Sequence record: OP778610
Reading direction: 5' to 3' (one strand)
Length of the DNA stretch: 64,000 bases
From: Escherichia phage W70
Position 1 is the first letter of the stretch, and every line of letters begins with the position of its first letter. Both the position numbers and the translations under genes were made by a program. Of this stretch, positions 1-62,376 are shown piece by piece. The notes below the pieces were generated by a model that searched no databases, was not told where the DNA came from, and saw nothing but the letters and a program-made list of their open reading frames with translations.

Positions 1-343
1 ATTGGAAAATTTTTTATATCCACAAAAATATAGGGCTTGTCAAGGTCTTTGATAAGAAATTTTCAGGAGGTGAGAATTATTCTCATTTGCAGAATAACGG
101 GCAGGGGTGGTGATTGCTTCGTGAAACCGTCCTCATCACCATGAATATATAATAGCACCGTTTTTGATTAGAAAGCAACAACATTTTAAAAATATTTTTC
201 GGTAAATTTTGGCCGAGCCACCGGCGATCCACCTTACAACCTGGCGGCGATGCCTGGTATGTTAGCCCCGCCTTTACGCCGTGGGGATGGCGATTGTTTT
301 CCTATGTAAGCATTATGGCCCCCTGGCGGGGCCGTTGTCAAGA

Positions 344-610
344 TTATTTTTTGTTTTCTTGCCAGGCCAGGACACCTAACCAAAAAATAGGATAACCGCG
401 TTTATCTTTTGGTATGTTGCTTTCCCCGCCACCGCCTTGCATCCATTCTACGCCACTGTTAAACATTTCAAGCTGATAAAGGTCGGTTATCTTTGTATCC
501 TTAAGGTTAAGGATTGTTTCAACCTTTAAGCCTGTTGCACTCGCCACTTGGTGGACCGTTCCACCTTGCCATTTTAAAGCGTGCATGAGGTGTAGTGTAG
601 TAGTTGTCAT
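344..610 (-). CDS. hypothetical protein (88 aa)
   Basis: Open frame on minus strand with weak RBS; no recognisable motif. Confidence 0.3.
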   Translation of the reverse strand: MTTTTLHLMHALKWQGGTVHQVASATGLKVETILNLKDTKITDLYQLEMFNSGVEWMQGGGGESNIPKDKRGYPIFWLGVLAWQENKK

Positions 611-722
611 GTTGTGTTGCCCTTTCTTTTGTTGTGCGCCCTGGTTGTCGCGGTAAAAAGACTATAAATGATCTTCCTTTATATAGCAAGGAAAAAGAAA
701 TTAAAAAAGATTAAAAATAATG

Positions 723-751
723 TTGACGTAGTGAATCTGGTAGCGTAGTAT
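723..751 (+). promoter_or_regulatory. sigma70-like promoter (TTGACG-17bp-TAGTAT)
   Basis: -35/-10 hexamers with 17-bp spacer upstream of ORF 809. Confidence 0.4.
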
Positions 752-808
752 TCATCTCATCGAACGGCGACATGCCAACAAGTAAACAAATAAAAGGGCA
801 ACAACAAA

Positions 809-994
809 ATGAATAAAAGAATTACAAACGTAAATCCTGGCGAACGTTTCCAACATGAGGGGCATTTGCACACTGTAGTAAGCAACAAAGAGCATACTGT
901 AAGAGTAAATAGAAATATCTTGCAACTTCGCGATCGTTTTGGTATCGTACAGACTTACACTTTCGAAGCAAATAAAACAGTTAAAACTTTCTGA
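809..994 (+). CDS. hypothetical small early protein (61 aa)
   Basis: ORF downstream of promoter; no recognisable motif. Confidence 0.45.
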   Translation: MNKRITNVNPGERFQHEGHLHTVVSNKEHTVRVNRNILQLRDRFGIVQTYTFEANKTVKTF

Positions 995-1005
995 GGATTT
1001 TTAAA

Positions 1006-1341
1006 ATGGCACTAGTCACTAAGTATTTCATTGAAGGCCAGCAAGCGGCGCAACAAGGTTACAGCCGTGTTACTCGTTACAAGAAAGAAGAAAACAAGAT
1101 TGAATTTTTCAAGGGTTACGATAGTGTAAACCGTGATGCAATGGTCCTACGCTTCGAATCCGATCCAGTGGGCAAGCCTGTTACCTCTTACCAGGCATCA
1201 CCGCAGATTGTTTATGTTGGTACTGTTAAAGAATGTAACGACAAGTTAATCACTTTGAAGCAGGCCGATCGTGCGGGTTACTTTGTTGTTTACACTGCTG
1301 ACGGTAAGCCTTACCAGTACGAAAGCAAATATTTTAAATAA
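1006..1341 (+). CDS. hypothetical protein (111 aa)
   Basis: ORF with GAGGA RBS 12 nt after previous stop. Confidence 0.5.
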   Translation: MALVTKYFIEGQQAAQQGYSRVTRYKKEENKIEFFKGYDSVNRDAMVLRFESDPVGKPVTSYQASPQIVYVGTVKECNDKLITLKQADRAGYFVVYTADGKPYQYESKYFK

Positions 1342-1347
1342 AAAGTA

Positions 1348-1405
1348 TTGACAGAAAGAAAGAAGTAAATTAAATTATACCACGTAACGCCGCAATCGTG
1401 CGGCA
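1348..1405 (+). promoter_or_regulatory. promoter (TTGACA) plus 5-prime stem-loop cassette
   Basis: TTGACA at 1348, AT-rich -10, hairpin CGCCGCAATCGTGCGGC before ORF 1423. Confidence 0.4.
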
Positions 1406-1422
1406 ATAAAAACTGATAGGAA

Positions 1423-1644
1423 TTGAACAAAATGGCTAAAATCATCATTAAAAAATCCCGTGTATCTTCTGTTGCTCGCGTCGAAATGGTAAACACTATG
1501 CCAGGTTACCGGACTCGCGAGGAAGCCCGAAGCGTTGCAAAACAGATTAAAGCCCGTGGCTTAACTGTAAGTGCACCGACCAAAACACAAGAAGGATGGA
1601 AGGTATCTATTAAATCCGGTACACTGTCGATCAATAAACACTAA
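1423..1644 (+). CDS. hypothetical basic protein (73 aa)
   Basis: ORF after promoter/hairpin cassette. Confidence 0.5.
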   Translation: MNKMAKIIIKKSRVSSVARVEMVNTMPGYRTREEARSVAKQIKARGLTVSAPTKTQEGWKVSIKSGTLSINKH

Positions 1645-1707
1645 TAGCCAAAACATTAACGGGGCAACTTTGCCCCTCACTAAATAACATTATCCAGGAG
1701 TATTAAC

Positions 1708-1866
1708 ATGACTAGCCAAAACACTAACATTGAAAAAATCAACATTACTAAAGAGCGTAAAGCATGGAATGAAACATTAAATCTGAAAGGTAAGAAGCTG
1801 AATAAAACTAAACGCGATCGCAGTACAAAGCGGGCCTTTTGTGAATTTACAGCGGATCAAGAATGA
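1708..1866 (+). CDS. hypothetical small basic protein (52 aa)
   Basis: ATG at 1708 after CAGGAG RBS; stop overlaps next ATG (ATGA); below the 60-aa ORF track cutoff. Confidence 0.4.
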   Translation: MTSQNTNIEKINITKERKAWNETLNLKGKKLNKTKRDRSTKRAFCEFTADQE

Positions 1867-2162
1867 TGATTAAAGTTATTGCACTTACTGCCTTATTGTG
1901 TATACCATTTTTGGCGCACGGTACTAAGTTTTACGGTGCTAACTTGATAGATTGTAAAGCTCATATGCTGGACCATGAAACAGGCAACAAATTTGTTAAG
2001 CCTTTCCAGATCAATCCGGCGGTGTTTACTGACGGTGTTTTATATCAGGAAGGTAAAGCCAGTACGCTGATAATCCATTACGATCCAGCGACAAAGAAAG
2101 GTAGTTTATCAATCCAGGTTGAAGGCGCGGAAGAGTTTTCAGGTAAAATAATCTGCAATTAA
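1863..2162 (+). CDS. hypothetical exported protein (99 aa)
   Basis: N-terminal hydrophobic signal-like segment MMIKVIALTALLCIPFLAHG. Confidence 0.5.
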   Translation: MMIKVIALTALLCIPFLAHGTKFYGANLIDCKAHMLDHETGNKFVKPFQINPAVFTDGVLYQEGKASTLIIHYDPATKKGSLSIQVEGAEEFSGKIICN

Positions 2163-2170
2163 TATGTTAA

Positions 2171-2199
2171 GGCCCGCCATTGTGCGGGCCTTTCTTTTA
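2171..2199 (+). terminator. rho-independent terminator
   Basis: GGCCCGC-loop-GCGGGCC hairpin followed by T-tract. Confidence 0.6.
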
Positions 2200-2222
2200 T
2201 GAAAATAATTTTGAAAATGTTG

Positions 2223-2291
2223 TTGACAGCACCGATTAAAAGCGTATGATGTATTACATCAGGACGGGGAACCAAACAAGTAACTCCCCGT
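2223..2291 (+). promoter_or_regulatory. promoter (TTGACA..TATGAT) plus stem-loop
   Basis: Hexamers with 16-bp spacer then hairpin ACGGGGA..TCCCCGT. Confidence 0.4.
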
Positions 2292-2340
2292 TAAGTAGTC
2301 CAGGAGTAAGACATACGAAAACCTCCCCTGATAAAATAGT

Positions 2341-2399
2341 TTGACAATAGTTTTTAGTACTGTATAATACATTACATCAAGGGGAGAATAGTTCTCCCC
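2341..2399 (+). promoter_or_regulatory. promoter (TTGACA-17-TATAAT) plus stem-loop cassette
   Basis: Consensus hexamers; hairpin GGGGAGAATAGTTCTCCCC; RBS then ATG 2420. Confidence 0.55.
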
Positions 2400-2419
2400 A
2401 CATCAAAGGAATCAAAACA

Positions 2420-2647
2420 ATGGCTATCGTAATCACTCGCGTATCTGGTACAGTTGGCAATGCGGCAGTAGTAGCGGTTATCACTAATAAGAAAGGTGCG
2501 GAACTACATTTTGCAATGTATAACTGGTCAGTTGATGAGTTTGGTCAGTACGCTAGTGTAGAATACATTGAAACCTATCAAGTGCCGTCGATTAGTTTAA
2601 CTGATTTGGGCGTTGAGCGTATCCTTTGCCTGGATGAATTAAATTAA
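2420..2647 (+). CDS. hypothetical protein (75 aa)
   Basis: ORF with AAGGAAT RBS after cassette. Confidence 0.5.
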   Translation: MAIVITRVSGTVGNAAVVAVITNKKGAELHFAMYNWSVDEFGQYASVEYIETYQVPSISLTDLGVERILCLDELN

Positions 2648-2655
2648 AAAAGTAC

Positions 2656-2716
2656 TTGCAAAGTAAAACGAATAACGTATAATACATTACATCAAGGGGA
2701 GAAATGATTCTCCCCA
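2656..2716 (+). promoter_or_regulatory. promoter (TTGCAA..TATAAT) plus stem-loop cassette
   Basis: Near-identical 27-mer GTATAATACATTACATCAAGGGGAGAA shared with cassette at 2362. Confidence 0.5.
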
Positions 2717-2732
2717 CTAAGAGGAAACTAAG

Positions 2733-2873
2733 ATGAAAACTTGCCAGTGTGGTAAAAAGTCTATTGCTGGTCTGCGTCGCGGTGTTGCTTTATGCCAGTA
2801 TCATTACAATAGTCAAGTATGGGGTAAAACGTGGGCTGACCAGGTTGAAGCAGCAAAGAAAGCAAAAAAGTAA
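2733..2873 (+). CDS. hypothetical Cys-rich small protein (46 aa)
   Basis: ATG after GAGGAAA RBS; CxC..C pattern; below ORF track cutoff. Confidence 0.4.
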   Translation: MKTCQCGKKSIAGLRRGVALCQYHYNSQVWGKTWADQVEAAKKAKK

Positions 2874-2930
2874 TTGACAGCAGGAAGAAAAAGAGTAAAC
2901 TGTATTACGTAGGGCGGCAATAGCGCCGCC
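2874..2930 (+). promoter_or_regulatory. promoter (TTGACA) plus stem-loop GGCGGCAATAGCGCCGCC
   Basis: Cassette similar to the one at 6724. Confidence 0.45.
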
Positions 2931-2951
2931 ACATCAAAGAGAGAAATCAAA

Positions 2952-3170
2952 ATGGCTAATATCCGCACACTGTTAAAAAATGCAAAAGAAGTTTTATTTT
3001 CTGACGATGAATATTTTAATCGCAATATCAAAGGCGTTCGGAACATTAAGGATATAAAGGAATTATTTGGAATCAAAGGTAACGTATATCGTAAAGGATT
3101 GCACGGTAATAATTTTGAATATAAGTTGGCTGATAGTGATTATAATTTTACACTGACCATCATTAGTTGA
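2952..3170 (+). CDS. hypothetical protein (72 aa)
   Basis: ORF with GAGAGA RBS after cassette. Confidence 0.5.
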   Translation: MANIRTLLKNAKEVLFSDDEYFNRNIKGVRNIKDIKELFGIKGNVYRKGLHGNNFEYKLADSDYNFTLTIIS

Positions 3171-3189
3171 AAGTTTTAATCTAGCGCTA

Positions 3190-3218
3190 TTGACTTAAGC
3201 CGATAGTGCTGGCATAAT
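3190..3218 (+). promoter_or_regulatory. sigma70-like promoter (TTGACT-17-CATAAT)
   Basis: Hexamers; cassette paralogous to promoter at 3483. Confidence 0.45.
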
Positions 3219-3250
3219 AACTTTTATCAAGAACATCAAAGGAAAGTAAA

Positions 3251-3463
3251 ATGGCTATCATTACTAAAATCAAAGTAAACAAAACACTGGTTAAGCTGGA
3301 AGAAGTGAAAGCAGGTTATAAAGTATCTTGGTGTGGCATGTATCGGATGTTCACAGATATAGACGATGCAATCAATTACTACACTAACACGATTAAAAAC
3401 TTTGTTCGTGCTGATGTGATTATTGCAGTGGAAGCACATAAAGCATCGAAAGAAAGTAAGTAA
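3251..3463 (+). CDS. hypothetical protein (70 aa)
   Basis: ORF with AAGGAAA RBS. Confidence 0.5.
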   Translation: MAIITKIKVNKTLVKLEEVKAGYKVSWCGMYRMFTDIDDAINYYTNTIKNFVRADVIIAVEAHKASKESK

Positions 3464-3482
3464 AATTATTACCACAGTACTA

Positions 3483-3511
3483 TTGACAACTACTGATAGT
3501 ACTGACATAAT
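3483..3511 (+). promoter_or_regulatory. sigma70-like promoter (TTGACA-17-CATAAT)
   Basis: Hexamers; shares CTGATAGTACTG..CATAATAACTTTTAT with promoter at 3190. Confidence 0.45.
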
Positions 3512-3556
3512 AACTTTTATTAAGTACTACAAATCAAACAAAGAGAGAATACAATC

Positions 3557-3796
3557 ATGGCTAACAACAAAACTTTTAACGGTCACAAAAACAAAACTCA
3601 TTGGAATGTTTCCTTGTGGATTAATAACGATGCATCACTGTATCGACTGGCTAATGATTTCATCGTCGCTAACACTAATCGTAACGATGCGGCCCGTCAT
3701 ATGATGTTATTTTTAGAACAAACCGGACAACATAAAACACCGGACGGATTCAAGTATAGTACTACTGCAATCCGTGCCGCGATGGTTGGGATGTAA
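3557..3796 (+). CDS. hypothetical protein (79 aa)
   Basis: ORF with GAGAGAA RBS. Confidence 0.5.
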   Translation: MANNKTFNGHKNKTHWNVSLWINNDASLYRLANDFIVANTNRNDAARHMMLFLEQTGQHKTPDGFKYSTTAIRAAMVGM

Positions 3797-3853
3797 TATT
3801 CAGTACTGAATCAATGGCGGGGAATAGTTCCCGCCTTTACTGAGGATTATCTA

Positions 3854-4138
3854 ATGAGCAAAGTAATTAATAGTAAAGTACTGAGTAAAACATTAACACT
3901 CACTGAGTGCACCAATGGCTTTTGGCTATACGATTCTACCCGTGGCATGAATATAGCTATGCAAGCGAAATCAGAGGAGGCTGCATTTGTTGAAGCCCTG
4001 GGATACTATCAGAGACGTCTACAGGAAGTAGAAAACAATTACACCAGCCTTAAAGCGAAAGTAGACCATTTCATCGGGCAAGTGGTAGAAGATGATGAGG
4101 ATGGTCACTATTGCGAACGCTGCGGATCTTACAGCTAA
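3854..4138 (+). CDS. hypothetical protein (94 aa), C-terminal CxxC
   Basis: ORF with GAGGA RBS, preceded by hairpin GGCGGGGAATAGTTCCCGCC. Confidence 0.5.
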   Translation: MSKVINSKVLSKTLTLTECTNGFWLYDSTRGMNIAMQAKSEEAAFVEALGYYQRRLQEVENNYTSLKAKVDHFIGQVVEDDEDGHYCERCGSYS

Positions 4139-4146
4139 AAAAGTAG

Positions 4147-4203
4147 TTGACACAAAGAAACAAAACAAGTAAATTAATCACATCAGGCGGGGAATGGACC
4201 CGC
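4147..4203 (+). promoter_or_regulatory. promoter (TTGACA-17-TAAATT) plus stem-loop cassette
   Basis: About 90% identical to cassette at 6264. Confidence 0.5.
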
Positions 4204-4225
4204 TAAAAGAGAAGAGAGAAATCAA

Positions 4226-4558
4226 ATGAGCTTTTTATCTATCGTACAGACTAACTTTGAAAATGATTTCATTGCTCAAGCTATCAACATCGACAAAGGT
4301 ATCCCAAATATCAATTTTGGTTACAATAGCGGTGGTTATGAAAGATACCAGTATTTTGTAACTGACGATGGAAGTGTTTTAGGTATCAATACAGTGATGG
4401 CTAATATCCAAAACATTAATTTCAATGATCCCGATGAGCGCTCATTTTATATCGTCGGTATCCAGGTAAACTATGAAGATGATACGTTAACCGATGATTA
4501 CACAGGTGAAGTATTAGAAAGTGTTTACGGTGATGAATCAGAAGAAGAAGAAGAATAA
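4226..4558 (+). CDS. hypothetical acidic protein (110 aa)
   Basis: ORF with GAGAGA RBS; C-terminal SEEEEE. Confidence 0.5.
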   Translation: MSFLSIVQTNFENDFIAQAINIDKGIPNINFGYNSGGYERYQYFVTDDGSVLGINTVMANIQNINFNDPDERSFYIVGIQVNYEDDTLTDDYTGEVLESVYGDESEEEEE

Positions 4559-4573
4559 GATTAGAAAAAGTAG

Positions 4574-4633
4574 TTGACGGAAAGAGTATAAAGAAGTAAG
4601 ATAATTAACGAATAGGGGGAAACATCTTCCCCC
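4574..4633 (+). promoter_or_regulatory. promoter (TTGACG-17-TAAGAT) plus stem-loop GGGGGAAACATCTTCCCCC
   Basis: Hexamers and hairpin before ORF 4658. Confidence 0.45.
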
Positions 4634-4657
4634 ATAAACAAAAAGAGAGATTGAAAA

Positions 4658-4840
4658 ATGACAGAACTGATTGCAACTACAAAGATCGAAGGCGTTAACG
4701 ATGTTACTTTGTCCTATGATCCTTCTACTCTGGTTTATGTTGTGAAATATGGCAGAATGATCGCAGAACTTGATTGCATTGATGAGGCTTTCGAAAAATA
4801 TTTCGAACTTATCAATATTGCTTATGATGACTACCGTTAA
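4658..4840 (+). CDS. hypothetical protein (60 aa)
   Basis: ORF with GAGAGA RBS. Confidence 0.45.
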   Translation: MTELIATTKIEGVNDVTLSYDPSTLVYVVKYGRMIAELDCIDEAFEKYFELINIAYDDYR

Positions 4841-4870
4841 TATACAACGTAAAAATAGAAAGGTGATAAA

Positions 4871-5080
4871 ATGATCAATGAAAAAACAATCAATGATGTT
4901 CGCGAGGAAGTTTTAGCCGTTGCTGTAGAATCGGGTGCACGTCAGGCATTTTGGAAAGCTACTGATCTTTACCCCGAGCAAGCCGAAAATATTCTTAATC
5001 AGGTCAGCGTTAAACTTGAACAAATAGGCAAACTGAAAACAAGTGAGCGCCTCGACCAAATCATTAAAGAAAGTTTTTGA
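4871..5080 (+). CDS. hypothetical protein (69 aa)
   Basis: ORF with AAAGGTGA RBS. Confidence 0.45.
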   Translation: MINEKTINDVREEVLAVAVESGARQAFWKATDLYPEQAENILNQVSVKLEQIGKLKTSERLDQIIKESF

Positions 5081-5144
5081 TTGACTTTTAACATTGCCCC
5101 TATTAGTATTCAGGGGCAAGATTAAAAGAAACAAGGACACAAAG

Positions 5145-5456
5145 ATGAACGATATTGTTAGCATTATAGGTTTACTGGGCGTAGGCTACGTCGCCACATC
5201 AATTACAATGAGTTACTTCAATAAAAGGCGTGATAAAATGTTTTGTTACTTTGAATACCGTTACCGTGGTAAGGTTGGATCATCCCGTGACTATGGTCCG
5301 ATGTTAGAGATTGATGCGGTTGGCGCTATGCAGTATCGCCAGTCACTAGGGGCTGAAATAATTTTTGAAGTGTACCGCAGTACAGAAGAAGAGATCCACG
5401 ACATTATTGACGAGCGTCAATATTACCACGAACAACAAACTAAACGCAGGGCTTAA
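5145..5456 (+). CDS. hypothetical membrane protein (103 aa)
   Basis: Start moved to internal ATG with AAGGA RBS; N-terminal TM helix. Confidence 0.45.
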   Translation: MNDIVSIIGLLGVGYVATSITMSYFNKRRDKMFCYFEYRYRGKVGSSRDYGPMLEIDAVGAMQYRQSLGAEIIFEVYRSTEEEIHDIIDERQYYHEQQTKRRA

Positions 5457-5459
5457 CAT

Positions 5460-5597
5460 ATGACTAATACAAACCGACAAAAAATCATCAAAACTAAAAA
5501 ACTTGATTTCAATACTTATCAAGAATGCAAGAAGAAAGTAAAAGATAAGCGAGAGAACAAGCGGCACGAATGGATAAGCAATACAATCGATCTTTAA
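5460..5597 (+). CDS. hypothetical small basic protein (45 aa)
   Basis: ATG 3 nt after previous stop; followed by terminator; below ORF track cutoff. Confidence 0.35.
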   Translation: MTNTNRQKIIKTKKLDFNTYQECKKKVKDKRENKRHEWISNTIDL

Positions 5598-5606
5598 TAT
5601 CAACCT

Positions 5607-5630
5607 AAGCCCACTATGTGGGCTTTTCTT
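5607..5630 (+). terminator. rho-independent terminator
   Basis: AAGCCCAC-loop-GTGGGCTT hairpin plus T-tract. Confidence 0.6.
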
Positions 5631-5643
5631 ATGGAGAACAGAC

Positions 5644-5871
5644 ATGATTAATATTCTTTCACTTACAGAAGTGATCCGCTTCCTCAAAAACAACGCCCTG
5701 GGAACGTCTATAACGTATCTAATCCCGCAAGGTAAGGATTATGCCAGCGTTACACGTTCAATCACTGCTACGGCTTCCAGAGAAGAAATAAAGGTCAGCG
5801 TAAGCCAATTGTTGATTGTTGATCCGTCATCTTGCGAGACTATCCAGGCAGTAAAGATAATTAGAAAATAA
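5644..5871 (+). CDS. hypothetical protein (75 aa)
   Basis: ORF with GGAGAA RBS. Confidence 0.4.
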   Translation: MINILSLTEVIRFLKNNALGTSITYLIPQGKDYASVTRSITATASREEIKVSVSQLLIVDPSSCETIQAVKIIRK

Positions 5872-5956
5872 TTTAAAAAACTTCTTGCATCCATTATTGA
5901 GAAGATGTACATTAGTTTCATCAAGACGAGATGATGACAATCAAAAGGTGATTACT

Positions 5957-6250
5957 ATGTTATACGAAGTTTTTGCGGGATTTTGTTTTTATGGTGCTGC
6001 CGCCGTTCGCCAATGTGATGATTATGTAGTTGAGTCATTCGATGATCCTTTGGCGTGTGAGATTGTTACTACGGCGTATGAGCAAGATCGCCGTTGGATT
6101 AATCCGGCCTGTATCGCATCGCCTGAGGTTGAACCTATGCCGGAAGGTGAGGAATTAACAGAGGAAGACTTGCAAGAAGTAAAAGAAGTTATGAGCTACA
6201 TGATTGATAATCTGGACGCTGAAAACTTACAACGGGCTTTGCAAAAATAA
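5957..6250 (+). CDS. hypothetical acidic protein (97 aa)
   Basis: Start moved to ATG with AAGGTG RBS. Confidence 0.45.
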   Translation: MLYEVFAGFCFYGAAAVRQCDDYVVESFDDPLACEIVTTAYEQDRRWINPACIASPEVEPMPEGEELTEEDLQEVKEVMSYMIDNLDAENLQRALQK

Positions 6251-6263
6251 TTTGAAAAAGTAG

Positions 6264-6320
6264 TTGACTCAAAGAAGCAAAACAAGTAAATTATTCACAT
6301 CAGGCGGGGAATGGCCCCGC
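6264..6320 (+). promoter_or_regulatory. promoter (TTGACT-17-TAAATT) plus stem-loop cassette
   Basis: Paralogue of cassette at 4147. Confidence 0.5.
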
Positions 6321-6336
6321 TAAACAAAAAGAGATT

Positions 6337-6717
6337 ATGAAAATGGCTAAAAATACTAACGTTTGTGATTACGCTAACCTGGTTACTCTGAATGCAGATT
6401 CTAAAATTAAACTAAGCGAGGTTGAAGCTATTCATATTCTGGCCCGTCGTTGGTTCCAACAATCATACGGCAATACTTATTTCTCTTTAAGTGTAGACGT
6501 GGAGATCGCTGGTAAATTGGTTCAAGTGGTTAGCGTGCCGTTCCAATATGGTTATGGTGATCATTTCGATACCGTGGCACTAGAAGAATTTAGCAAGGTT
6601 ATCAACATGGAAGGCAAGGAGTTTTCACGCGGTAGCTATCTATCCCGTTTTTGCCGTGACAACAATATCCCTGTTTATTCGAACGCCGTTGATGTTAAAC
6701 GCAAAAAAGATATGTAA
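6337..6717 (+). CDS. hypothetical protein (126 aa)
   Basis: ORF with AAGAGA RBS after cassette. Confidence 0.5.
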   Translation: MKMAKNTNVCDYANLVTLNADSKIKLSEVEAIHILARRWFQQSYGNTYFSLSVDVEIAGKLVQVVSVPFQYGYGDHFDTVALEEFSKVINMEGKEFSRGSYLSRFCRDNNIPVYSNAVDVKRKKDM

Positions 6718-6723
6718 TTATTA

Positions 6724-6782
6724 TTGACAGTACAAAGAAAACGAGTAAACTGTATTACATAGAAAGCGGGAACACTTCCCGC
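6724..6782 (+). promoter_or_regulatory. promoter (TTGACA..TAAACT) plus stem-loop GCGGGAACACTTCCCGC
   Basis: Paralogue of cassette at 2874. Confidence 0.45.
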
Positions 6783-6804
6783 TTATATTCTAGGAGTAAG
6801 AGAA

Positions 6805-7158
6805 ATGATCGAACAAATCAAAACTACGACGGCTAATGTAACGGGAACGGTAGCACACTTTACTAGTGATGAATCGCGGGGCGTTCCCTATTGTGCTGTA
6901 CATGTAAACACTGAGGGTAACTACTGGTTTACGGTTTACGGATCATATTCATTTGGACGGCCAGGGCATCAAAAAATTCTGGATAAAGTACAACCAACGG
7001 GTAAAAATATTACCGCTGAGATGTTTAATAAATCACTTGCAAAGTTAAAAGCACTGAAAGATTTTGGCTTTAAAGATCTAGTTATCAAACGTGATGAAAA
7101 ATTCCGCTTCCGTAATGATCTGGCAAATCGCTACTATGAAATCTATGAAGCACTTTAA
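6805..7158 (+). CDS. hypothetical protein (117 aa)
   Basis: ORF with AGGAG RBS. Confidence 0.5.
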   Translation: MIEQIKTTTANVTGTVAHFTSDESRGVPYCAVHVNTEGNYWFTVYGSYSFGRPGHQKILDKVQPTGKNITAEMFNKSLAKLKALKDFGFKDLVIKRDEKFRFRNDLANRYYEIYEAL

Positions 7159-7164
7159 TAAAAA

Positions 7165-7186
7165 GGGCCGCAATAGCGGCCTTTTC
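7165..7186 (+). terminator. rho-independent terminator
   Basis: GGGCCGCAATAGCGGCC hairpin plus TTTTC. Confidence 0.55.
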
Positions 7187-7268
7187 TATTGACACCTGCT
7201 AACCATTCCTTTAATATGCATCTTGTAGGGCAAGCAATAACGCAAGCCCACAAATAGGACAAACTATT

Positions 7269-7466
7269 ATGACCATCGCTAATGAACTGATCGCCGTATT
7301 GAATGAAGCCAAATCTAATGAAATCGATGTACAGATCAAGGAATTACCCAATGGCCTGATAGGTTGCACTTGCACCTGTATCGGAAGTGACTACACAGAG
7401 GTAAGCTCTCTAGAATCTCTCATTCGTCACTTGAAATCAATAGTTGAAGATTGGAGAATCATCTAA
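7269..7466 (+). CDS. hypothetical protein (65 aa)
   Basis: ORF; last gene of plus-strand early block. Confidence 0.45.
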   Translation: MTIANELIAVLNEAKSNEIDVQIKELPNGLIGCTCTCIGSDYTEVSSLESLIRHLKSIVEDWRII

Positions 7467-7603
7467 TAAACCAGGGGCCGCAATAGTGGCCCTTGTCATG
7501 TCCATCGGTGCGACTCTCCCAACCCTATTAATCCCTTCCCCATTTGGATCATCATAACTTACCTCATCTAATCATTAATCTAATCCCCTTTGGAATCTCT
7601 CCC

Positions 7604-8011
7604 CCACAAATCTAAACTAATCTGATAGCTTACCATAACATAATCCACAAAGAAAGAACTATTTTGCCCACAAAGAAAGGCAGTTTTAAAGAGATACCAT
7701 TGCCAGAGTATGGAGGTGGCGCGACCGTAGGGAGCGACACTATAAAACGAGTATACCCCTCCTACCGCTATGCGGTCATCGGTGATAACCGATATCGTTA
7801 CACGCTATCTGTTCTCTTCGTTTCCTCGTTTTATAGTGTCTATATGTAGTAATCTTTTATTCTTTGTCAATACATTATCGAAGATAATATTGAATTATTT
7901 AATGCTTTGTTATTCATATAAAGTGAATAGCTAGTCAATAGGAAGGCCGTTAGTGTGACCACACAAAGAGGCTATGCACCACAAAGAGAGGCCGTACTTG
8001 CCCACAAAAGG
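7604..8011. repeat. array of six CCACAAAG(A/G)(A/G) direct repeats (DnaA-box-like)
   Basis: Copies near 7604, 7645, 7668, 7959, 7978, 8001; TAATCCACA at 7642. Confidence 0.6.
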
Positions 8012-8117
8012 AGCAAACAAGCAAGGCGGTACGCCAGTTTGCTAATGAGCGTAGCTCTTTTGCTAGACAAAACTCTCTTCTCTCTTCTTTCCCAAAATAA
8101 ATTTTTTCTTGCTTTTA

Positions 8118-8285
8118 TTGCCAGAGTATGGCGGGGCGCTCAGGCTATTGATGGCCCTGATGGAGTCGCTCCTGCACAGTTGGGATAGTTCATCGTTGGA
8201 TAGTCACAAGTTGGTATTATTCTTCCCACTAGTTGGAACAGGCCAGAACTGGCGGGGCTTGGAGTCGCTCCACTTGTTGGACGGA
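8118..8285. repeat. duplicated TTGCCAGAGTATGG segment plus five GTTGG-type repeats
   Basis: TTGCCAGAGTATGG at 7700 and 8118; GGAGTCGCTCC twice; GTTGG every 15-20 bp. Confidence 0.55.
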
Positions 8286-8631
8286 AGAAGGGCGCTTGCA
8301 GTGCGTATAAGTTGTATTATGTTAAATGCAGATCGAAATCGGTATTCTAAACCAGATTCAGAAGTCAATAGAAATCTTTAACTTTATTGTTGGGGCAGCA
8401 CAACATTTTTCTTGACAAGTCGAATCAAAGATGTATTGTGGATTGAAAATAAATGAAGATAATGCTTGACTTCTTGGATATTTTGAAAACATCGGACCCC
8501 CTCCCCCTCCCCCACGGTCGCCGTGCCTGGCAGCAGTATCGATACGCTAGGATATTTTAGCCCCTACTGGACAAGACACCCCCCCGTCAGTTATAATGGG
8601 GGTATACCTATAGAAAAGTAAGGAGGTTGTA

Positions 8632-60783: not shown

Positions 60784-60891
60784 TAGGGGTAAGATACATG
60801 ATTGGATACGGAGAAGGTTGATGAAAGATGAATTTGATGGTTTCGTAGGATTCGGGGAGGGAATCATTAACGAGGAGAATTGGGATGTGTG

Positions 60892-61062
60892 ATGAAAGAC
60901 CAGACCTTTGAATCTCTAAGTTTCGATGACCCTCGTAATCATGAAAAACAAAAAGGTTACATGTGTCAGTGTTTTGTTTGTGGTTACAAATTTTTAGGGC
61001 CTAAGCGATCAGTGATGTGCAATCTTTGCCTTATTGGTAAAAAGACTGTTGACAATAGCTGA
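60892..61062 (+). CDS. hypothetical Cys-rich small protein
   Basis: CxCxxC..CxxC pattern; start uncertain. Confidence 0.35.
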   Translation: MKDQTFESLSFDDPRNHEKQKGYMCQCFVCGYKFLGPKRSVMCNLCLIGKKTVDNS

Positions 61063-61315
61063 TTAAATATGTAAGATTATCTTGTCGCCTGAGAGATTAG
61101 TCATCTTAATGGCTGGGTGGATAAATATAAGTTGGAACCATTATACCACCGACGCGATTTACGCTTTTGGTTGACTGTGACTAAATGGGATGCCCAGTCC
61201 ATCCTTCTTTAAAACGGGGAGCCGTCGAAGATTGTCTGATTAGTGATTTACGGATCATTATAGTTTTAATACCACGACAATCTTTTACGGTGTACCCCTT
61301 GTAAGAGAATTTAGC

Positions 61316-61394
61316 GCGGGTGTATCTCAACGGTCTTCTAAACCGTCGTTAATCGAGTAATTGGAGTATGAAGGTTCGAGTCCTTCCTCCCGCG
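61316..61394 (+). ncRNA. tRNA-like element (noncanonical; possible pseudo-tRNA or stable RNA)
   Basis: Canonical T-arm GAAGG-TTCGAGT-CCTTC and 7-bp acceptor-like helix with one mismatch; anticodon-like hairpin with loop CTTCTAA (TCT); no clean D-arm. Confidence 0.4.
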
Positions 61395-61413
61395 CTAAGT
61401 TCTTTTGAATATA

Positions 61414-61485
61414 GGCCCTGTAGCTGGACGGTTCAAGCAAGCGACTCATAATCGCCAGACGGTGGTTCGATTCCACCCAGGGCCA
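61414..61485 (+). tRNA. tRNA with anticodon CAT (Met or Ile2)
   Basis: Acceptor GGCCCTG/CAGGGCC, T-arm GGTGG-TTCGATT-CCACC, loop CTCATAA, CCA encoded. Confidence 0.8.
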
Positions 61486-61621
61486 CCATACAAAGTCGGG
61501 TAGCTCCCGATAAGTCGTCGGACTGATGTTCCCTGACTATGAGTTCTCTCAACGATAACGACGTAGATCACAGCAGAAACGGCGCACCCTATTATATTTC
61601 TTAATACATTTCAATAAGTTC

Positions 61622-61650
61622 TTGACATAATCCTATTATACTGCTAATAT
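61622..61650 (+). promoter_or_regulatory. sigma70-like promoter (TTGACA-17-TAATAT)
   Basis: Hexamers upstream of ORF 61678. Confidence 0.5.
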
Positions 61651-61677
61651 AGATATATCGACTGAATTGAGGTGTTT

Positions 61678-62052
61678 ATGGCTAAAGCTGAAATCGTTAC
61701 TCGAAAACGCGGTCGGCCTACTACAGAGGAAAGCATTGCAATCAATACTGAGAGAGCAATTCTTCATGCTCGTTCCGAGTTTGCAAGACTTACTCCTCAA
61801 GCAATTAAAACTCTGGAAGGTCTACTGACTTCCGGTACAGAGAAAGTTAAAGAAACTACTGCGAAGTATATTCTTGAGCAAGCTGAAAAGGCAAACAATC
61901 TGTACACAATGGAAGATAATGAAGAGGATCTGGCAGGAGGAACTACTTCTGCAAATTCAGAAACTCATCAAGGCCCTTCTGATGCATTTAAAGATGCTAT
62001 CCCATTAACTACTCAGATTCGTGAGTATAAAATGGCAGAAGGTGAAGATTAA
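61678..62052 (+). CDS. hypothetical protein with AT-hook-like KRGRP motif
   Basis: ATG after GAGGTG RBS; RKRGRPTT. Confidence 0.5.
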   Translation: MAKAEIVTRKRGRPTTEESIAINTERAILHARSEFARLTPQAIKTLEGLLTSGTEKVKETTAKYILEQAEKANNLYTMEDNEEDLAGGTTSANSETHQGPSDAFKDAIPLTTQIREYKMAEGED

Positions 62053-62075
62053 GGCTCGCAAGGGCCTTTATTAAG
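62052..62075 (+). terminator. terminator-like hairpin with GCAA tetraloop
   Basis: AGGCTC-GCAA-GGGCCT followed by T-rich tract. Confidence 0.45.
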
Positions 62076-62297
62076 AAGTTTTCTTTAAGGTAGTTCTTAC
62101 TTTAGCAGAGTAAATCTTCGGCAAGTGGCGGTAACCACTTTACCGATACCTCATAGTCAGTGCTGCAAACACTGGCTACCTTAAAGAGAATTTAACTCGT
62201 CGAATAAGGAAGATGCTGATCTCAAAGTGAGGTCACTTACCGCAAGGGGTGTGCATAGACTCCCGCTTCCGAATAGACTATGTGGCGAGATGTATTT

Positions 62298-62376
62298 GGG
62301 GACGTGGCAGAGCGGTCGAATGCGCCTGACTGTAAATCAGGTATCCCACACGGTGGTTCGAATCCATCCGGCCCCA
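62298..62376 (+). tRNA. tRNA-Tyr (anticodon GTA)
   Basis: AC arm CCTGA-CTGTAAA-TCAGG; T-arm GGTGG-TTCGAAT-CCATC; acceptor with one A-G mismatch; CCA encoded. Confidence 0.7.

What the first reader, a model, noticed from the sequence alone, without database searches (positions are those of the whole stretch)
61316..61394. tRNA-like element lacking a canonical cloverleaf (TCT anticodon-like loop)
The element has a textbook T-arm (GAAGG-TTCGAGT-CCTTC), a 7-bp acceptor-like helix with one U-U mismatch, and an anticodon-like hairpin ACGGT-CTTCTAA-ACCGT that would read Arg(TCT). There is no room for a D-arm, and a 23-nt segment separates the hairpin from the T-arm. It may be a degenerate tRNA or a tRNA-derived stable RNA, comparable to the small stable RNAs in the T4 tRNA region.
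Basis: seen in the sequence. Interest (0 to 1): 0.5.

Follow-up and report, generated by a model that had tools for sequence, protein, structure and literature searches.

The report
Rearranged-core arginine tRNA of phages
The odd tRNA-like element is not a decayed gene: it belongs to a large family, found here only in phages and not described in the papers I could search, of arginine tRNAs whose D-arm parts are all present but joined in a different order, making it a candidate natural non-cloverleaf tRNA used in bacterial cells.

Summary
Window 61316-61394 (+) has a 7-bp acceptor stem, a UCU anticodon hairpin and a standard T arm, but no D hairpin.

It is not degenerate. I collected 290 distinct relatives from more than 340 viral contigs, and at least 249 sequenced phage genomes carry it. 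Acceptor, anticodon and T stems are 98-100% paired with abundant compensatory changes.

The "missing" D arm is rearranged. Nucleotides 11-13 pair with 40-42, so this short helix encloses the anticodon arm. In a prospective test, pairs 11:42 and 12:41 were Watson-Crick in 290 of 290 members, using all four pair types. The next strand (UAAUUGGAGUAU) carries the D-loop hallmarks in order: A14, R15, G18, G19, A20, A21, Y48. It also shows Levitt-pair-like covariation.

Every member carries an arginine anticodon (UCU, CCU, ACG, UCG, CCG or GCG). In phage tRNA clusters the rearranged and canonical forms of the same anticodon almost never co-occur. None was found in 5,426 E. coli genomes.

Best reading (0.7): a working tRNA-Arg(UCU) for AGA/AGG codons, charged by host ArgRS. 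Expression, folding and charging are inferred, not shown. I found no published description, and GenBank records label it inconsistently.

The parts
61049..61077 (+). Sigma-70-like promoter (TTGACA, 17-nt spacer, TAAGAT) that probably drives the non-coding unit: leader, rearranged tRNA-Arg, tRNA-Met.
   Evidence: Consensus scan, 10 of 12 matches. No ORF of 60 aa or more lies between it and 61672. Function is inferred.
61084..61315 (+). 232-nt non-coding leader. It is strongly structured, and its 3' hairpin (about 61209-61310) is shared with T4-like phages.
   Evidence: MFE z = -3.08, 0 of 200 shuffles fold as well. BLAST gives 80-85% identity to more than 600 phage records, mostly T4-like; in RB14 the match lies in the rIII/30.9 intergenic region. 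The A73/RB14 alignment shows compensatory changes. It is unknown whether it belongs functionally to the tRNA.
61316..61322 (+). Acceptor stem, 5' strand (positions 1-7, GCGGGUG).
   Evidence: Pairs with 61387-61393. All 7 pairs show compensatory changes across the family; 98.5-98.7% of cells are paired.
61323..61325 (+). U8-A9-U10 connector.
   Evidence: U8 and A9 are invariant in alignments that did not force them. UAU occurs in 280 of 290 members. U8 is proposed to pair with A44, as U8 pairs with A14 in a normal tRNA (inference).
61326..61329 (+). Helix H2, 5' strand: C11 U12 C13, plus A14 (which lies opposite C39).
   Evidence: Pairs with G42 A41 G40. Pairs 11:42 and 12:41 are Watson-Crick in 290 of 290 members with all four pair types; 13:40 is paired in 70%.
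61330..61346 (+). Anticodon arm: stem ACGGU/ACCGU and loop CUUCUAA, with anticodon UCU at 61337-61339.
   Evidence: Stem is 98.8-100% paired and all pairs have compensatory changes. The loop is identical to that of E. coli argU.
61347..61354 (+). 3'-side bulge CGUUAAU plus C39, the subtype-specific linker between the anticodon stem and the H2 3' strand.
   Evidence: Bulge length is 2-9 nt across the family (3 nt in 128 members, 4 nt in 84, 7 nt in 54). The 7-nt CGUUAAY form is conserved from E. coli phages to a Streptomyces phage. Its role is unknown.
61355..61357 (+). Helix H2, 3' strand: G40 A41 G42.
   Evidence: See the H2 5' strand. Register-shift controls reach at most 0.62 paired, and the maximum of 1000 shuffles is 0.61 / 0.53 / 0.56, against 1.0 / 1.0 / 0.70 observed.
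61358..61369 (+). D-loop-like single strand U43 A44 A45 U46 U47 G48 G49 A50 G51 U52 A53 U54. Proposed equivalents: A14, R15, 16, 17, G18, G19, A20, 20a, 20b, A21, Y48.
   Evidence: U43, A44 and G48 are invariant, and A45, U47, G49, A50, A53 and U54 are at least 90% conserved, in the 86-sequence alignment. A53 occurs in 286 of 290 members. Positions 45:54 covary as A:U 284, G:C 3, A:C 2, G:G 1 (Fisher p = 1e-5). The argU D loop is AGUUGGAUA. The tertiary roles are inferred.
61370..61386 (+). T arm: stem GAAGG/CCUUC and T loop UUCGAGU.
   Evidence: 99.1-99.4% paired with compensatory changes; G59-C67 and UUC.A are invariant.
61387..61394 (+). Acceptor stem 3' strand CUCCCGC and discriminator G. 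No CCA is encoded (CUA follows).
   Evidence: In the family the discriminator is G 120, A 112, U 53, C 5, and CCA is encoded in 191 of 290 members.
61414..61488 (+). Canonical tRNA-Met(CAU), 19 nt downstream, probably co-transcribed.
   Evidence: ARAGORN and Rfam at 60.3 bits.

Best explanation
Window 61316-61394 encodes a working arginine tRNA (anticodon UCU) with a rearranged core.

Architecture. [quoted passage not shown] In place of a D hairpin, C11-U12-C13 (directly after U8-A9-U10) pairs with G40-A41-G42, which lies 3' of the anticodon arm. This short helix encloses and lengthens the anticodon arm. The nucleotides that normally form the D loop follow as one strand (A44 A45 U U G48 G49 A50 .. 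A53) and run through U54 straight into the T stem.

Proposed fold (inferred). Layer by layer this could rebuild the usual anticodon/D limb of the L shape:
- the 5-bp anticodon stem;
- a non-Watson-Crick 14.39 layer, equivalent to 26.44;
- four helix layers, including U10.U43;
- U8.A44(.A53), equivalent to 8.14.21;
- A45.U54, equivalent to the Levitt pair 15.48;
- G48 and G49 docking on the T loop.

Proposed function (inferred). The RNA is made from the promoter at 61049-61077 together with tRNA-Met. Host RNase P and 3' trimming process it, and host CCA addition is needed because CCA is not encoded here. Host ArgRS charges it with arginine through A50 (the A20 equivalent), C35, U36 and G73. It then reads AGA (and AGG), codons the phage uses far more than E. 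coli does and for which the phage has no other tRNA.

Shown here: the four helices, the arginine-only anticodons, the restriction to phages in the collections searched, and the mutual exclusion with canonical isoacceptors.
Inferred: transcription, processing, the L-shaped fold, charging and decoding.
For: 1. Conservation and covariation.
- At least 249 phage genome records carry the element over at least 80% of its length, and I found 290 distinct variants in 342 loci.
- Acceptor, anticodon and T stems are 98-100% paired; 15 of 17 pairs show compensatory changes; 0 of 500 shuffles match this.
- RNAalifold independently recovers these three helices.

2. Helix 11-13:40-42, tested prospectively.
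- Scans forced position 11, 12 or 13 away from the consensus while leaving 39-42 free.
- Results: 11:42 = CG 192, GC 42, AU 30, UA 26; 12:41 = CG 121, UA 84, GC 64, AU 21. That is 100% Watson-Crick. 13:40 is paired in 70%. Controls are far lower.

3. D-loop-like strand.
- The string UAANUGGA..AU is invariant or nearly so.
- 45:54 covaries like the R15:Y48 Levitt pair (p = 1e-5).
- Total length is 73-84 nt without CCA, close to that of a normal tRNA.
- After re-ordering the segments in silico, ARAGORN of 86 members tRNA-Arg with the right anticodon, against 0 of 86 native sequences.

4. Arginine specificity.
- 290 of 290 anticodons are Arg.
- An anticodon-free scan gave 68 of 68 Arg among real members.
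- No GCU or ACU (Ser) anticodon appeared, although the scan patterns allowed them.
- C35, U/G36 and mostly A/G73 match the bacterial Arg identity set A20, C35, U/G36, A/G73 (PMC9976931).

5. Substitution for canonical isoacceptors (Fisher tests). In 74 loci with at least 15 canonical tRNAs:
- UCU: rearranged only 28, canonical only 25, both 2 (p = 6e-6).
- ACG: rearranged only 35, canonical only 19, both 0 (p = 3e-7).
- Loci with several copies always carry different anticodons.

6. This phage.
- ARAGORN finds only five tRNAs and no tRNA-Arg in the A73 record and the window.
- AGA is 17.3% and AGG 8.7% of Arg codons, against an AGA share of 3.6% in E. coli K-12 (PMC9965538).

7. Feasibility. 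The E. coli ribosome, EF-Tu and HisRS accept an engineered tRNA that lacks the D arm (PMC11551756).
Against: - There is no direct evidence of transcription, processing, aminoacylation or decoding for any member.
- The A73 copy has a U6.U mismatch in the acceptor stem and no encoded CCA. The flanks can extend the acceptor helix by 3 bp (AGC/GCU), which could hinder RNase P.
- The A20 equivalent sits in a non-canonical backbone context, so recognition by ArgRS is not assured.
- RNAalifold does not predict the 11-13:40-42 helix on energy grounds.
- Pair 13:40 is unpaired in 30% of members, and 14:39 is mostly non-Watson-Crick.
- The re-ordering test discriminates only moderately: 46 of 86 sequences with the D region shuffled are still called.
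- Most loci are partial contigs, so 'no canonical isoacceptor' refers to the fetched stretch only.
- Exact mimicry of the host anticodon loop would also suit a decoy.
Confidence: 0.7

Rival explanations
1. A tRNA mimic that does not take part in translation. For example, it could act as a decoy or sponge for a host tRNA-Arg-directed anticodon nuclease or another tRNA-targeting defence, or as a regulator that binds ArgRS or tRNA-modifying enzymes.
For: - It was found in phages and absent from 5,426 E. coli genomes. In 185,579 species genomes it turned up only on four MAG contigs.
- Its anticodon loop is identical to that of host argU, while the body differs radically.
- Phage tRNAs are known to counter tRNA-targeting defences (PMC10264068 and PMC11464382, seen).
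Against: - A decoy should be independent of, or co-occur with, the phage's canonical isoacceptor. Instead the two forms of one anticodon exclude each other.
- Multi-copy loci carry complementary anticodon sets like an ordinary isoacceptor family.
- 191 of 290 members encode CCA and keep an Arg-type discriminator.
- The conserved core nucleotides are those needed for an L-shaped, ArgRS-readable tRNA.
Confidence: 0.15
2. A charged tRNA with an amino-acid identity other than arginine, for example serine as with the D-armless mitochondrial tRNA-Ser(UCU). This would recode AGA/AGG, or CGN in relatives, during infection.
For: - The rearranged core removes the normal context of A20, the main E. coli ArgRS determinant (PMC9976931).
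- A long segment occupies the variable-arm position.
- Discriminator G is the commonest.
- D-armless tRNAs with a UCU anticodon are serine tRNAs in nematode mitochondria (PMC7609411).
Against: - The scaffold carries six different arginine anticodons and nothing else. This is what anticodon-dependent ArgRS recognition (C35, U/G36) predicts; SerRS does not read the anticodon (my own knowledge).
- There is no paired variable arm: the candidate hairpin 38-41:46-49 is not supported.
- A73 uses AGA/AGG at 26% of Arg codons in ordinary ORFs. Wholesale substitution would be harmful.
Confidence: 0.05
3. A decaying tRNA pseudogene, or a chance tRNA-like fold, specific to this phage.
For: - ARAGORN does not call it.
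- The single-sequence fold is unremarkable (z = -1.08).
- The acceptor stem has a U.U mismatch and no CCA is encoded.
- Most GenBank records do not annotate it.
Against: - Hundreds of diverged copies in unrelated phages show compensatory changes in four helices and invariant core nucleotides.
- The copy is identical in phage LTH01, whose flanks are 94.6% identical.
- U.U at 6:67 and the lack of CCA both occur in other family members.
Confidence: 0.02
4. A processed, stable small RNA with another role, for example a primer, a processing signal for the neighbouring tRNA-Met, or a partner of the upstream T4-like hairpin.
For: - It lies in a non-coding unit, between a structured leader shared with T4-like phages and tRNA-Met.
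- In some phages it sits next to HNH endonuclease genes.
Against: - The neighbours differ between phage groups: Leu and Cys in KpS8, Ser in 121Q, HNH in Roth37 and wV8, no tRNA nearby in Kuravirus 1-6af. Any function therefore travels with the element itself.
- An arginine-only anticodon set and exclusion of canonical isoacceptors have no explanation under this reading.
Confidence: 0.06

Closest known systems
Canonical bacterial and phage tRNA-Arg, e.g. E. coli argU tRNA-Arg(UCU)
   Same: - 7-bp acceptor stem with a G or A discriminator.
- 5-bp anticodon stem with the same loop, CUUCUAA.
- 5-bp T stem with a UUCGA T loop (argU: GCAGG-UUCGAAU-CCUGC).
- U8-A9.
- D-stem-like CUC/GAG pairing.
- A D-loop string, AAUUGGAGUA, against AGUUGGAUA in argU.
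- Similar total length.
   Different: The order of segments differs.
- argU: U8 A9, GCUC, D loop, GAGC, A26, anticodon arm, variable loop, T arm.
- This element: U8 A9, UCUC, A, anticodon arm, bulge, C-GAG-U, D-loop string, U, T arm.
So the D-stem-like helix closes the anticodon arm and there is no D hairpin. ARAGORN with default settings called only 9 of 365 copies.
D-armless mitochondrial tRNA-Ser(AGY/AGN) of animals, e.g. bovine tRNA-Ser(GCU) and Ascaris tRNA-Ser(UCU)
   Same: - Three-armed secondary structure with no D hairpin.
- A short connector after the acceptor stem.
- Reads AGN codons, in some cases with a UCU anticodon (PMC7609411).
   Different: - The mitochondrial tRNAs are eroded: short or atypical T arms, flexible non-L shapes, and a need for co-evolved synthetases and EF-Tu.
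- The phage family keeps a textbook T loop, the GG dinucleotide and the other core nucleotides, has normal length, works in a bacterial cytoplasm, and carries arginine anticodons only.
Circularly permuted tRNA genes of Cyanidioschyzon merolae and some other algae and archaea (my own knowledge)
   Same: tRNA segments are encoded in a non-standard order.
   Different: In those genes the 3' half precedes the 5' half, and processing through a circular intermediate restores a canonical mature tRNA. Here the acceptor strands are at the two ends as usual. Only internal blocks are exchanged, so the mature RNA itself must have the new connectivity.
Engineered D-arm-less 'mini HisT' in E. coli (PMC11551756)
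   Same: It shows that an E. coli synthetase, EF-Tu and the ribosome can use a tRNA without a D hairpin.
   Different: That tRNA is artificial, lacks the D-loop nucleotides altogether, and needed a host pnp mutation to be usable. The paper states that all known bacterial tRNAs are cloverleaf-shaped. The phage family is natural and retains the D-loop nucleotides.
   Same: Small non-coding genes embedded among phage tRNA genes.
   Different: No sequence relationship: BLAST with the element found no T4-like phage among the listed hits or organism tallies. I know of no arginine anticodon arm or comparable core in those RNAs (my own knowledge).

Membership tests
tRNA (Rfam RF00005, cloverleaf) | Score at or above the curated gathering score. 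| tested here: met
   35.8 bits against a gathering score of 29, at 61316-61394, model positions 1-71.
tRNA (Rfam RF00005, cloverleaf) | 7-bp acceptor stem, 5-bp anticodon stem with a 7-nt loop (U33, purine 37), and 5-bp T stem with a UUCRA loop. | tested here: met
   Sequence. Covariation: 98-100% of cells paired and 15 of 17 pairs with double changes.
tRNA (Rfam RF00005, cloverleaf) | D arm: a hairpin at positions 10-25, between the acceptor and anticodon stems. | tested here: not met
   Only 7 nt separate the two stems. The Rfam alignment deletes the D arm (4 nt in place of 15). ARAGORN called 0 of 86 native sequences tested in isolation and 9 of 365 copies in their loci.
tRNA (Rfam RF00005, cloverleaf) | Expressed, processed, carries CCA and is aminoacylated. 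| not testable with these tools
   CCA is not encoded in this copy (CUA); it is encoded in 191 of 290 relatives. No expression data are available.
Bacterial tRNA-Arg (identity set A20, C35, U/G36, A/G73; PMC9976931) | C35 and U36 or G36 in the anticodon. | tested here: met
   UCU in this copy. 290 of 290 family anticodons are NCU or NCG arginine anticodons, and an anticodon-free scan gave 68 of 68 Arg.
Bacterial tRNA-Arg (identity set A20, C35, U/G36, A/G73; PMC9976931) | Discriminator A73 or G73. | tested here: met
   G at 61394. In the family: G 120, A 112, U 53, C 5.
Bacterial tRNA-Arg (identity set A20, C35, U/G36, A/G73; PMC9976931) | A20 in the D loop, directly after G18 G19. | tested here: inconclusive
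   An A (A50, 61365) follows the conserved GG in every family member from the scan that did not constrain this region. It lies on a strand 3' of the anticodon arm, so recognition by ArgRS is an inference.
Animal mitochondrial D-armless tRNA-Ser(AGN) | No D hairpin, and reads AGN codons. | tested here: met
Animal mitochondrial D-armless tRNA-Ser(AGN) | Reduced core: no G18G19/T-loop elbow, an atypical T arm and shortened length (PMC7609411). | tested here: not met
   The family has a canonical T loop, a conserved GG, a length of 73-84 nt, and Levitt-pair-like covariation.
Circularly permuted tRNA genes (C. merolae type) | The 3' half is encoded upstream of the 5' half, and the acceptor strands are joined through an intervening sequence. 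| tested here: not met
   The acceptor 5' strand is at the 5' end and the 3' strand at the 3' end of the gene.
T4 stable RNAs C and D | Sequence homology to the T4 genes. | tested here: not met
   No T4-like phage appears in the listed hits or organism tallies of the BLAST searches with the element.

The most novel reading that the evidence does not exclude
A widespread natural class of tRNAs whose backbone connectivity differs from the cloverleaf. The D-stem strand plus D loop and the anticodon arm have exchanged places, yet the RNA folds into an essentially canonical L shape and is charged by the host ArgRS. It is used by phages of Enterobacteria, Actinobacteria and many uncultured hosts. 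This would be the first non-cloverleaf tRNA known to work in bacterial translation.

A further, more speculative step: the rearranged body is kept because it lets the phage's arginine tRNAs escape host (or phage-encoded) nucleases or other factors that recognise the normal tRNA-Arg body.
Probability: 0.55. Interest if true: 0.9.

Novelty: new variant of a known kind. Interest (0 to 1): 0.82.

Why it matters
A 2024 paper states that all known bacterial tRNAs are cloverleaf-shaped (PMC11551756). Non-cloverleaf tRNAs are treated as a peculiarity of animal mitochondria.

- If this family is functional, it would be a natural counter-example. The same tertiary core could be reached with a different chain topology, and the E. 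coli synthetase, EF-Tu, ribosome and processing enzymes would tolerate it.
- Phage tRNA inventories would need correcting. Standard finders miss the gene or mislabel it as Leu, Val, 'OTHER' or 'TERM'. Counts of phage tRNA-Arg, and codon-compensation analyses for AGA/AGG/CGN, are therefore biased.
- It offers a ready-made scaffold for orthogonal tRNA engineering.
- It gives a concrete handle on why phages carry their own tRNAs, for example resistance to tRNA-targeting immunity.

The hypothesis can be tested directly in E. coli with well-known phages (Felix O1 relatives, 121Q, A73).

Tried and rejected
1. A variable-arm hairpin, U38-C39-G40-A41 with U46-U47-G48-G49 and a GUAA loop, was suggested by RNAfold. 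Rejected: position 46 varies without compensation, pairs 38 and 39 break in the Kuravirus and 'type C' members, and G40-A41 are demonstrably paired with 12-13 instead.

2. Pairing of C11-U12-C13 with G49-A50-G51. Rejected: 49-51 are invariant while 11-13 vary.

3. ARAGORN with relaxed and mitochondrial settings gave only artefacts.

4. The single-sequence MFE fold gives a different, non-significant structure.

5. RNAalifold recovers only the three classical helices, so the new helix rests on covariation.

6. The idea that the single 'tRNA-Arg(TCT)' reported for Kuravirus phages (PMC9965538) is this element could not be shown. Only 5 records, three to five of them Kuravirus-like, carry that version of the element, and ARAGORN finds no tRNA near it.

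7. A search of 5,426 complete E. coli genomes found no match. A scan of 185,579 species genomes gave 11 pattern hits, of which only 4 loci, all MAG contigs, hold real members.

8. Seven literature searches found no description (one was spoiled because 'armless' matched 'harmless'). Subscription journals are not covered, so earlier mentions cannot be excluded.

9. BLAST with a divergent ACG-type member found only two Microbacterium phages. BLAST is too insensitive to count the family among isolates.

10. The in-silico re-ordering test is only moderately specific: 46 of 86 shuffled controls still pass.

11. A truncated copy in Klebsiella phage K18PH07C1 was looked at but not pursued, because that record's annotation is unreliable.
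Full report
**1. What is in the window**

- The Rfam tRNA model matches exactly these coordinates at 35.8 bits (gathering score 29). It does so only by deleting the D arm and inserting 20 nt before the T arm.
- ARAGORN misses it with default settings. With relaxed settings it gives only artefacts.
- The region 60800-62300 is 100% identical to Escherichia phage A73 (OP778609.1, Vequintavirinae).
- Sampled positions from 10001 to the window end match that record. The first roughly 10 kb are only partly collinear with it and include a deletion of about 7.5 kb, so the source is A73 or a very close relative.

**2. It is not a one-off**

- BLAST finds the element at 85-100% identity in at least 249 phage genome records.
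- The carriers are unrelated groups: Felixounavirus, Mydovirus, Justusliebigvirus, Asteriusvirus jumbo phages, a roughly 110-kb Klebsiella phage group, a few Kuravirus, and a Streptomyces phage.
- Similarity starts and stops at the edges of the acceptor stem.
- Pattern scans of IMG/VR, followed by a structure-based parser, gave 290 distinct sequences from 342 loci.
- GenBank records mostly leave it unannotated. Others call it tRNA-OTHER, tRNA-Undet, tRNA-Leu(taa), tRNA-Val(aac) or tRNA-TERM.

**3. The three classical helices are real**

- In 32 close relatives, 98.9% of cells are paired, 15 of 17 pairs carry double changes, and 0 of 500 shuffles reach this.
- In 86 diverse members the acceptor stem is 98.5% paired, the anticodon stem 100% and the T stem 99.1%.
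- RNAalifold recovers the same three helices on its own.

**4. Where the D arm went**

*The new helix*
- Divergent members showed that C11-U12-C13 changes together with G40-A41-G42. Examples: CUU/AAG, CUG/CAG, CGG/CCG, CGC/GCG.
- I tested this prospectively. I scanned IMG/VR for members in which position 11, 12 or 13 is not the consensus base, leaving 39-42 unconstrained.
- Over all 290 members:
  - 11:42 is CG 192, GC 42, AU 30, UA 26.
  - 12:41 is CG 121, UA 84, GC 64, AU 21. Both pairs are Watson-Crick in every case.
  - 13:40 is paired in 70%.
  - 14:39 is mostly C.A, A.C or G.A.
- Register shifts give at most 62% pairing. The best of 1000 shuffles gives 61%, 53% and 56%.
- So a short helix encloses the anticodon arm and lengthens it. 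A bulge of 2-9 nt sits on its 3' side; in A73 it is 7 nt, CGUUAAU.

*The D-loop-like strand*
- The strand after the helix is the most conserved part of the molecule: U43 A44 A45 N U47 G48 G49 A50, then 2-3 nt, then A53 U54, then the T stem.
- Read against E. coli argU (D loop AGUUGGAUA), this is A14 R15 N Y G18 G19 A20 .. A21 followed by Y48.
- Positions 45 and 54 covary as A:U 284, G:C 3, A:C 2, G:G 1 (p = 1e-5). This is the behaviour of the R15:Y48 Levitt pair.
- Members are 73-84 nt long without CCA. Nothing is missing; the parts are joined in another order.
- If the blocks are re-ordered in silico, ARAGORN of 86 members tRNA-Arg with the correct anticodon, against 0 of 86 native. However, 46 of 86 with the D region shuffled also pass, so this test is only supportive.

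*Structural inference*
The stack would run: anticodon stem, 14.39, 13:40, 12:41, 11:42, U10.U43, U8.A44(.A53), A45.U54, then G48 and G49 docking on the T loop. This reproduces the layers of a normal tRNA: anticodon stem, 26.44, four D-stem pairs, 8.14.21, 15.48 and the elbow.

**5. It is an arginine scaffold**

- All 290 members carry arginine anticodons: UCU 152, ACG 75, CCU 32, UCG 25, CCG 4, GCG 2.
- A scan that did not constrain the anticodon gave 68 of 68 Arg among real members.
- The later patterns allowed GCU and ACU (Ser), and none appeared.
- C35, U/G36 and mostly A/G73 match the bacterial arginine identity set. The A after GG is the counterpart of A20, the main E. coli ArgRS determinant (PMC9976931).
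- The loop CUUCUAA is identical to that of argU.

**6. It behaves like an isoacceptor**

- In 74 loci with at least 15 canonical tRNAs, for UCU the counts are: rearranged only 28, canonical only 25, both 2, neither 19 (p = 6e-6).
- For ACG: rearranged only 35, canonical only 19, both 0 (p = 3e-7).
- The 23 loci with two or three copies always carry different anticodons.
- The family is absent from 5,426 complete E. coli genomes. In 185,579 species genomes it appears only on four MAG contigs.
- The A73 genome has only five ARAGORN tRNAs (Met, Tyr, Gly, Gln, Pro) and no tRNA-Arg.
- Yet AGA is 17.3% and AGG 8.7% of its arginine codons. The AGA share in E. coli K-12 is 3.6% (PMC9965538).

**7. Context in the window**

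- A good sigma-70-type promoter lies at 61049-61077.
- It is followed by a structured 232-nt leader (z = -3.08), the element, and 19 nt later tRNA-Met (61414-61488).
- The next promoter-like site (61622-61650) precedes an ORF at 61672-62052.
- The A73 copy has a U6.U mismatch and CUA in place of CCA. Both features occur in other members.

**8. Most likely mechanism and rivals**

- Best reading (0.7): a functional tRNA-Arg(UCU) with a rearranged core, processed and CCA-tailed by host enzymes, charged by host ArgRS, and supplying AGA/AGG decoding.
- Shown here: the helices, the arginine-only anticodons, the restriction to phages in the collections searched, and the exclusion of canonical isoacceptors.
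- Inferred: expression, the L-shaped fold, charging and decoding.
- Rivals:
  - A non-translating decoy or regulator (0.15). The mutual exclusion argues against it.
  - A tRNA with non-arginine identity (0.05). The anticodon set argues against it.
  - Another kind of stable RNA (0.06).
  - A pseudogene (0.02). The comparative data contradict it.

**9. Relation to what is known**

- It works like a tRNA-Arg. It fails one defining feature of the cloverleaf, the D hairpin.
- It resembles the D-armless mitochondrial tRNA-Ser(AGN) only in outline. Those are eroded molecules, whereas this one keeps the full core (PMC7609411).
- It is not a circularly permuted gene of the algal type, because its acceptor strands are at the two ends of the gene.
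- A 2024 paper states that all known bacterial tRNAs are cloverleaf-shaped. The same paper shows that E. coli can use an engineered D-armless tRNA (PMC11551756).
- I found no description of this family in the searchable literature. I therefore rate it a new variant of a known kind, of high interest, pending expression and charging data.

Noticed in passing
window 61209-61310 (within the leader 61084-61315): A long hairpin RNA immediately upstream of the element matches more than 600 phage records, mostly T4-like, at 80-85% identity over about 95 nt. In RB14 the match lies unannotated between rIII and 30.9. The A73/RB14 alignment shows compensatory changes, for example CCGU..ACGG against CCAU..AUGG. 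The whole leader folds with z = -3.08. No Rfam family matches it.
   Followed up: partly
window 61181-61330, minus strand: GenBank annotates a 49-aa 'hypothetical protein' (A73_157) that overlaps the conserved hairpin and the first 15 nt of the tRNA. It is probably a spurious gene call over non-coding RNA.
   Followed up: no
L074:7728-7814, L058:8792-8878, L156:1793-1879: One subtype has an extra GUC directly after the anticodon stem and a GAC just before the T stem. These could form a 3-bp helix across the rearranged region, a pseudoknot-like closure where a variable loop would run. All three copies have the same sequence there, so there is no covariation to test it.
   Followed up: no
window 61347-61353; L173:1495-1573 (Streptomyces phage Yaboi): The 7-nt bulge CGUUAAY of the A73 subtype is conserved from E. 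coli, Salmonella and Klebsiella phages to a Streptomyces phage, although other subtypes manage with 2-4 unrelated nucleotides. Its role is unexplained. In 121Q it was misread as a UAA anticodon (tRNA-Leu), and in Yaboi the gene is annotated tRNA-Val(aac).
   Followed up: partly
L005:1589-2098, L006:1815-2219, L177:1501-1550: HNH endonuclease genes lie downstream of the element in Klebsiella phage Roth37 (directly adjacent) and in the Felixounavirus wV8 (about 230 nt away). In Klebsiella phage K18PH07C1 only the first 50 nt or so of the element are present, under an HNH annotation. This suggests homing-endonuclease traffic at this gene.
   Followed up: no
window 61313-61315 with 61394-61396: In A73 and LTH01 the flanks AGC and GCU extend the acceptor helix to 10 bp and include the discriminator. 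This is not conserved in other phages. It might affect RNase P and 3' processing of this particular copy.
   Followed up: no
window 1-10000: The first roughly 10 kb of the window are only partly collinear with the A73 GenBank record (scattered non-matching stretches and a deletion of about 7.5 kb). Sampled positions from 10001 to the end match it. The window therefore comes from A73 or a very close relative, not necessarily from the deposited record.
   Followed up: partly
window 61489-61621: About 130 nt of non-coding sequence follow tRNA-Met, before the next promoter-like site (61622-61650). They contain a small GC hairpin (61496-61510). I did not examine it further.
   Followed up: no
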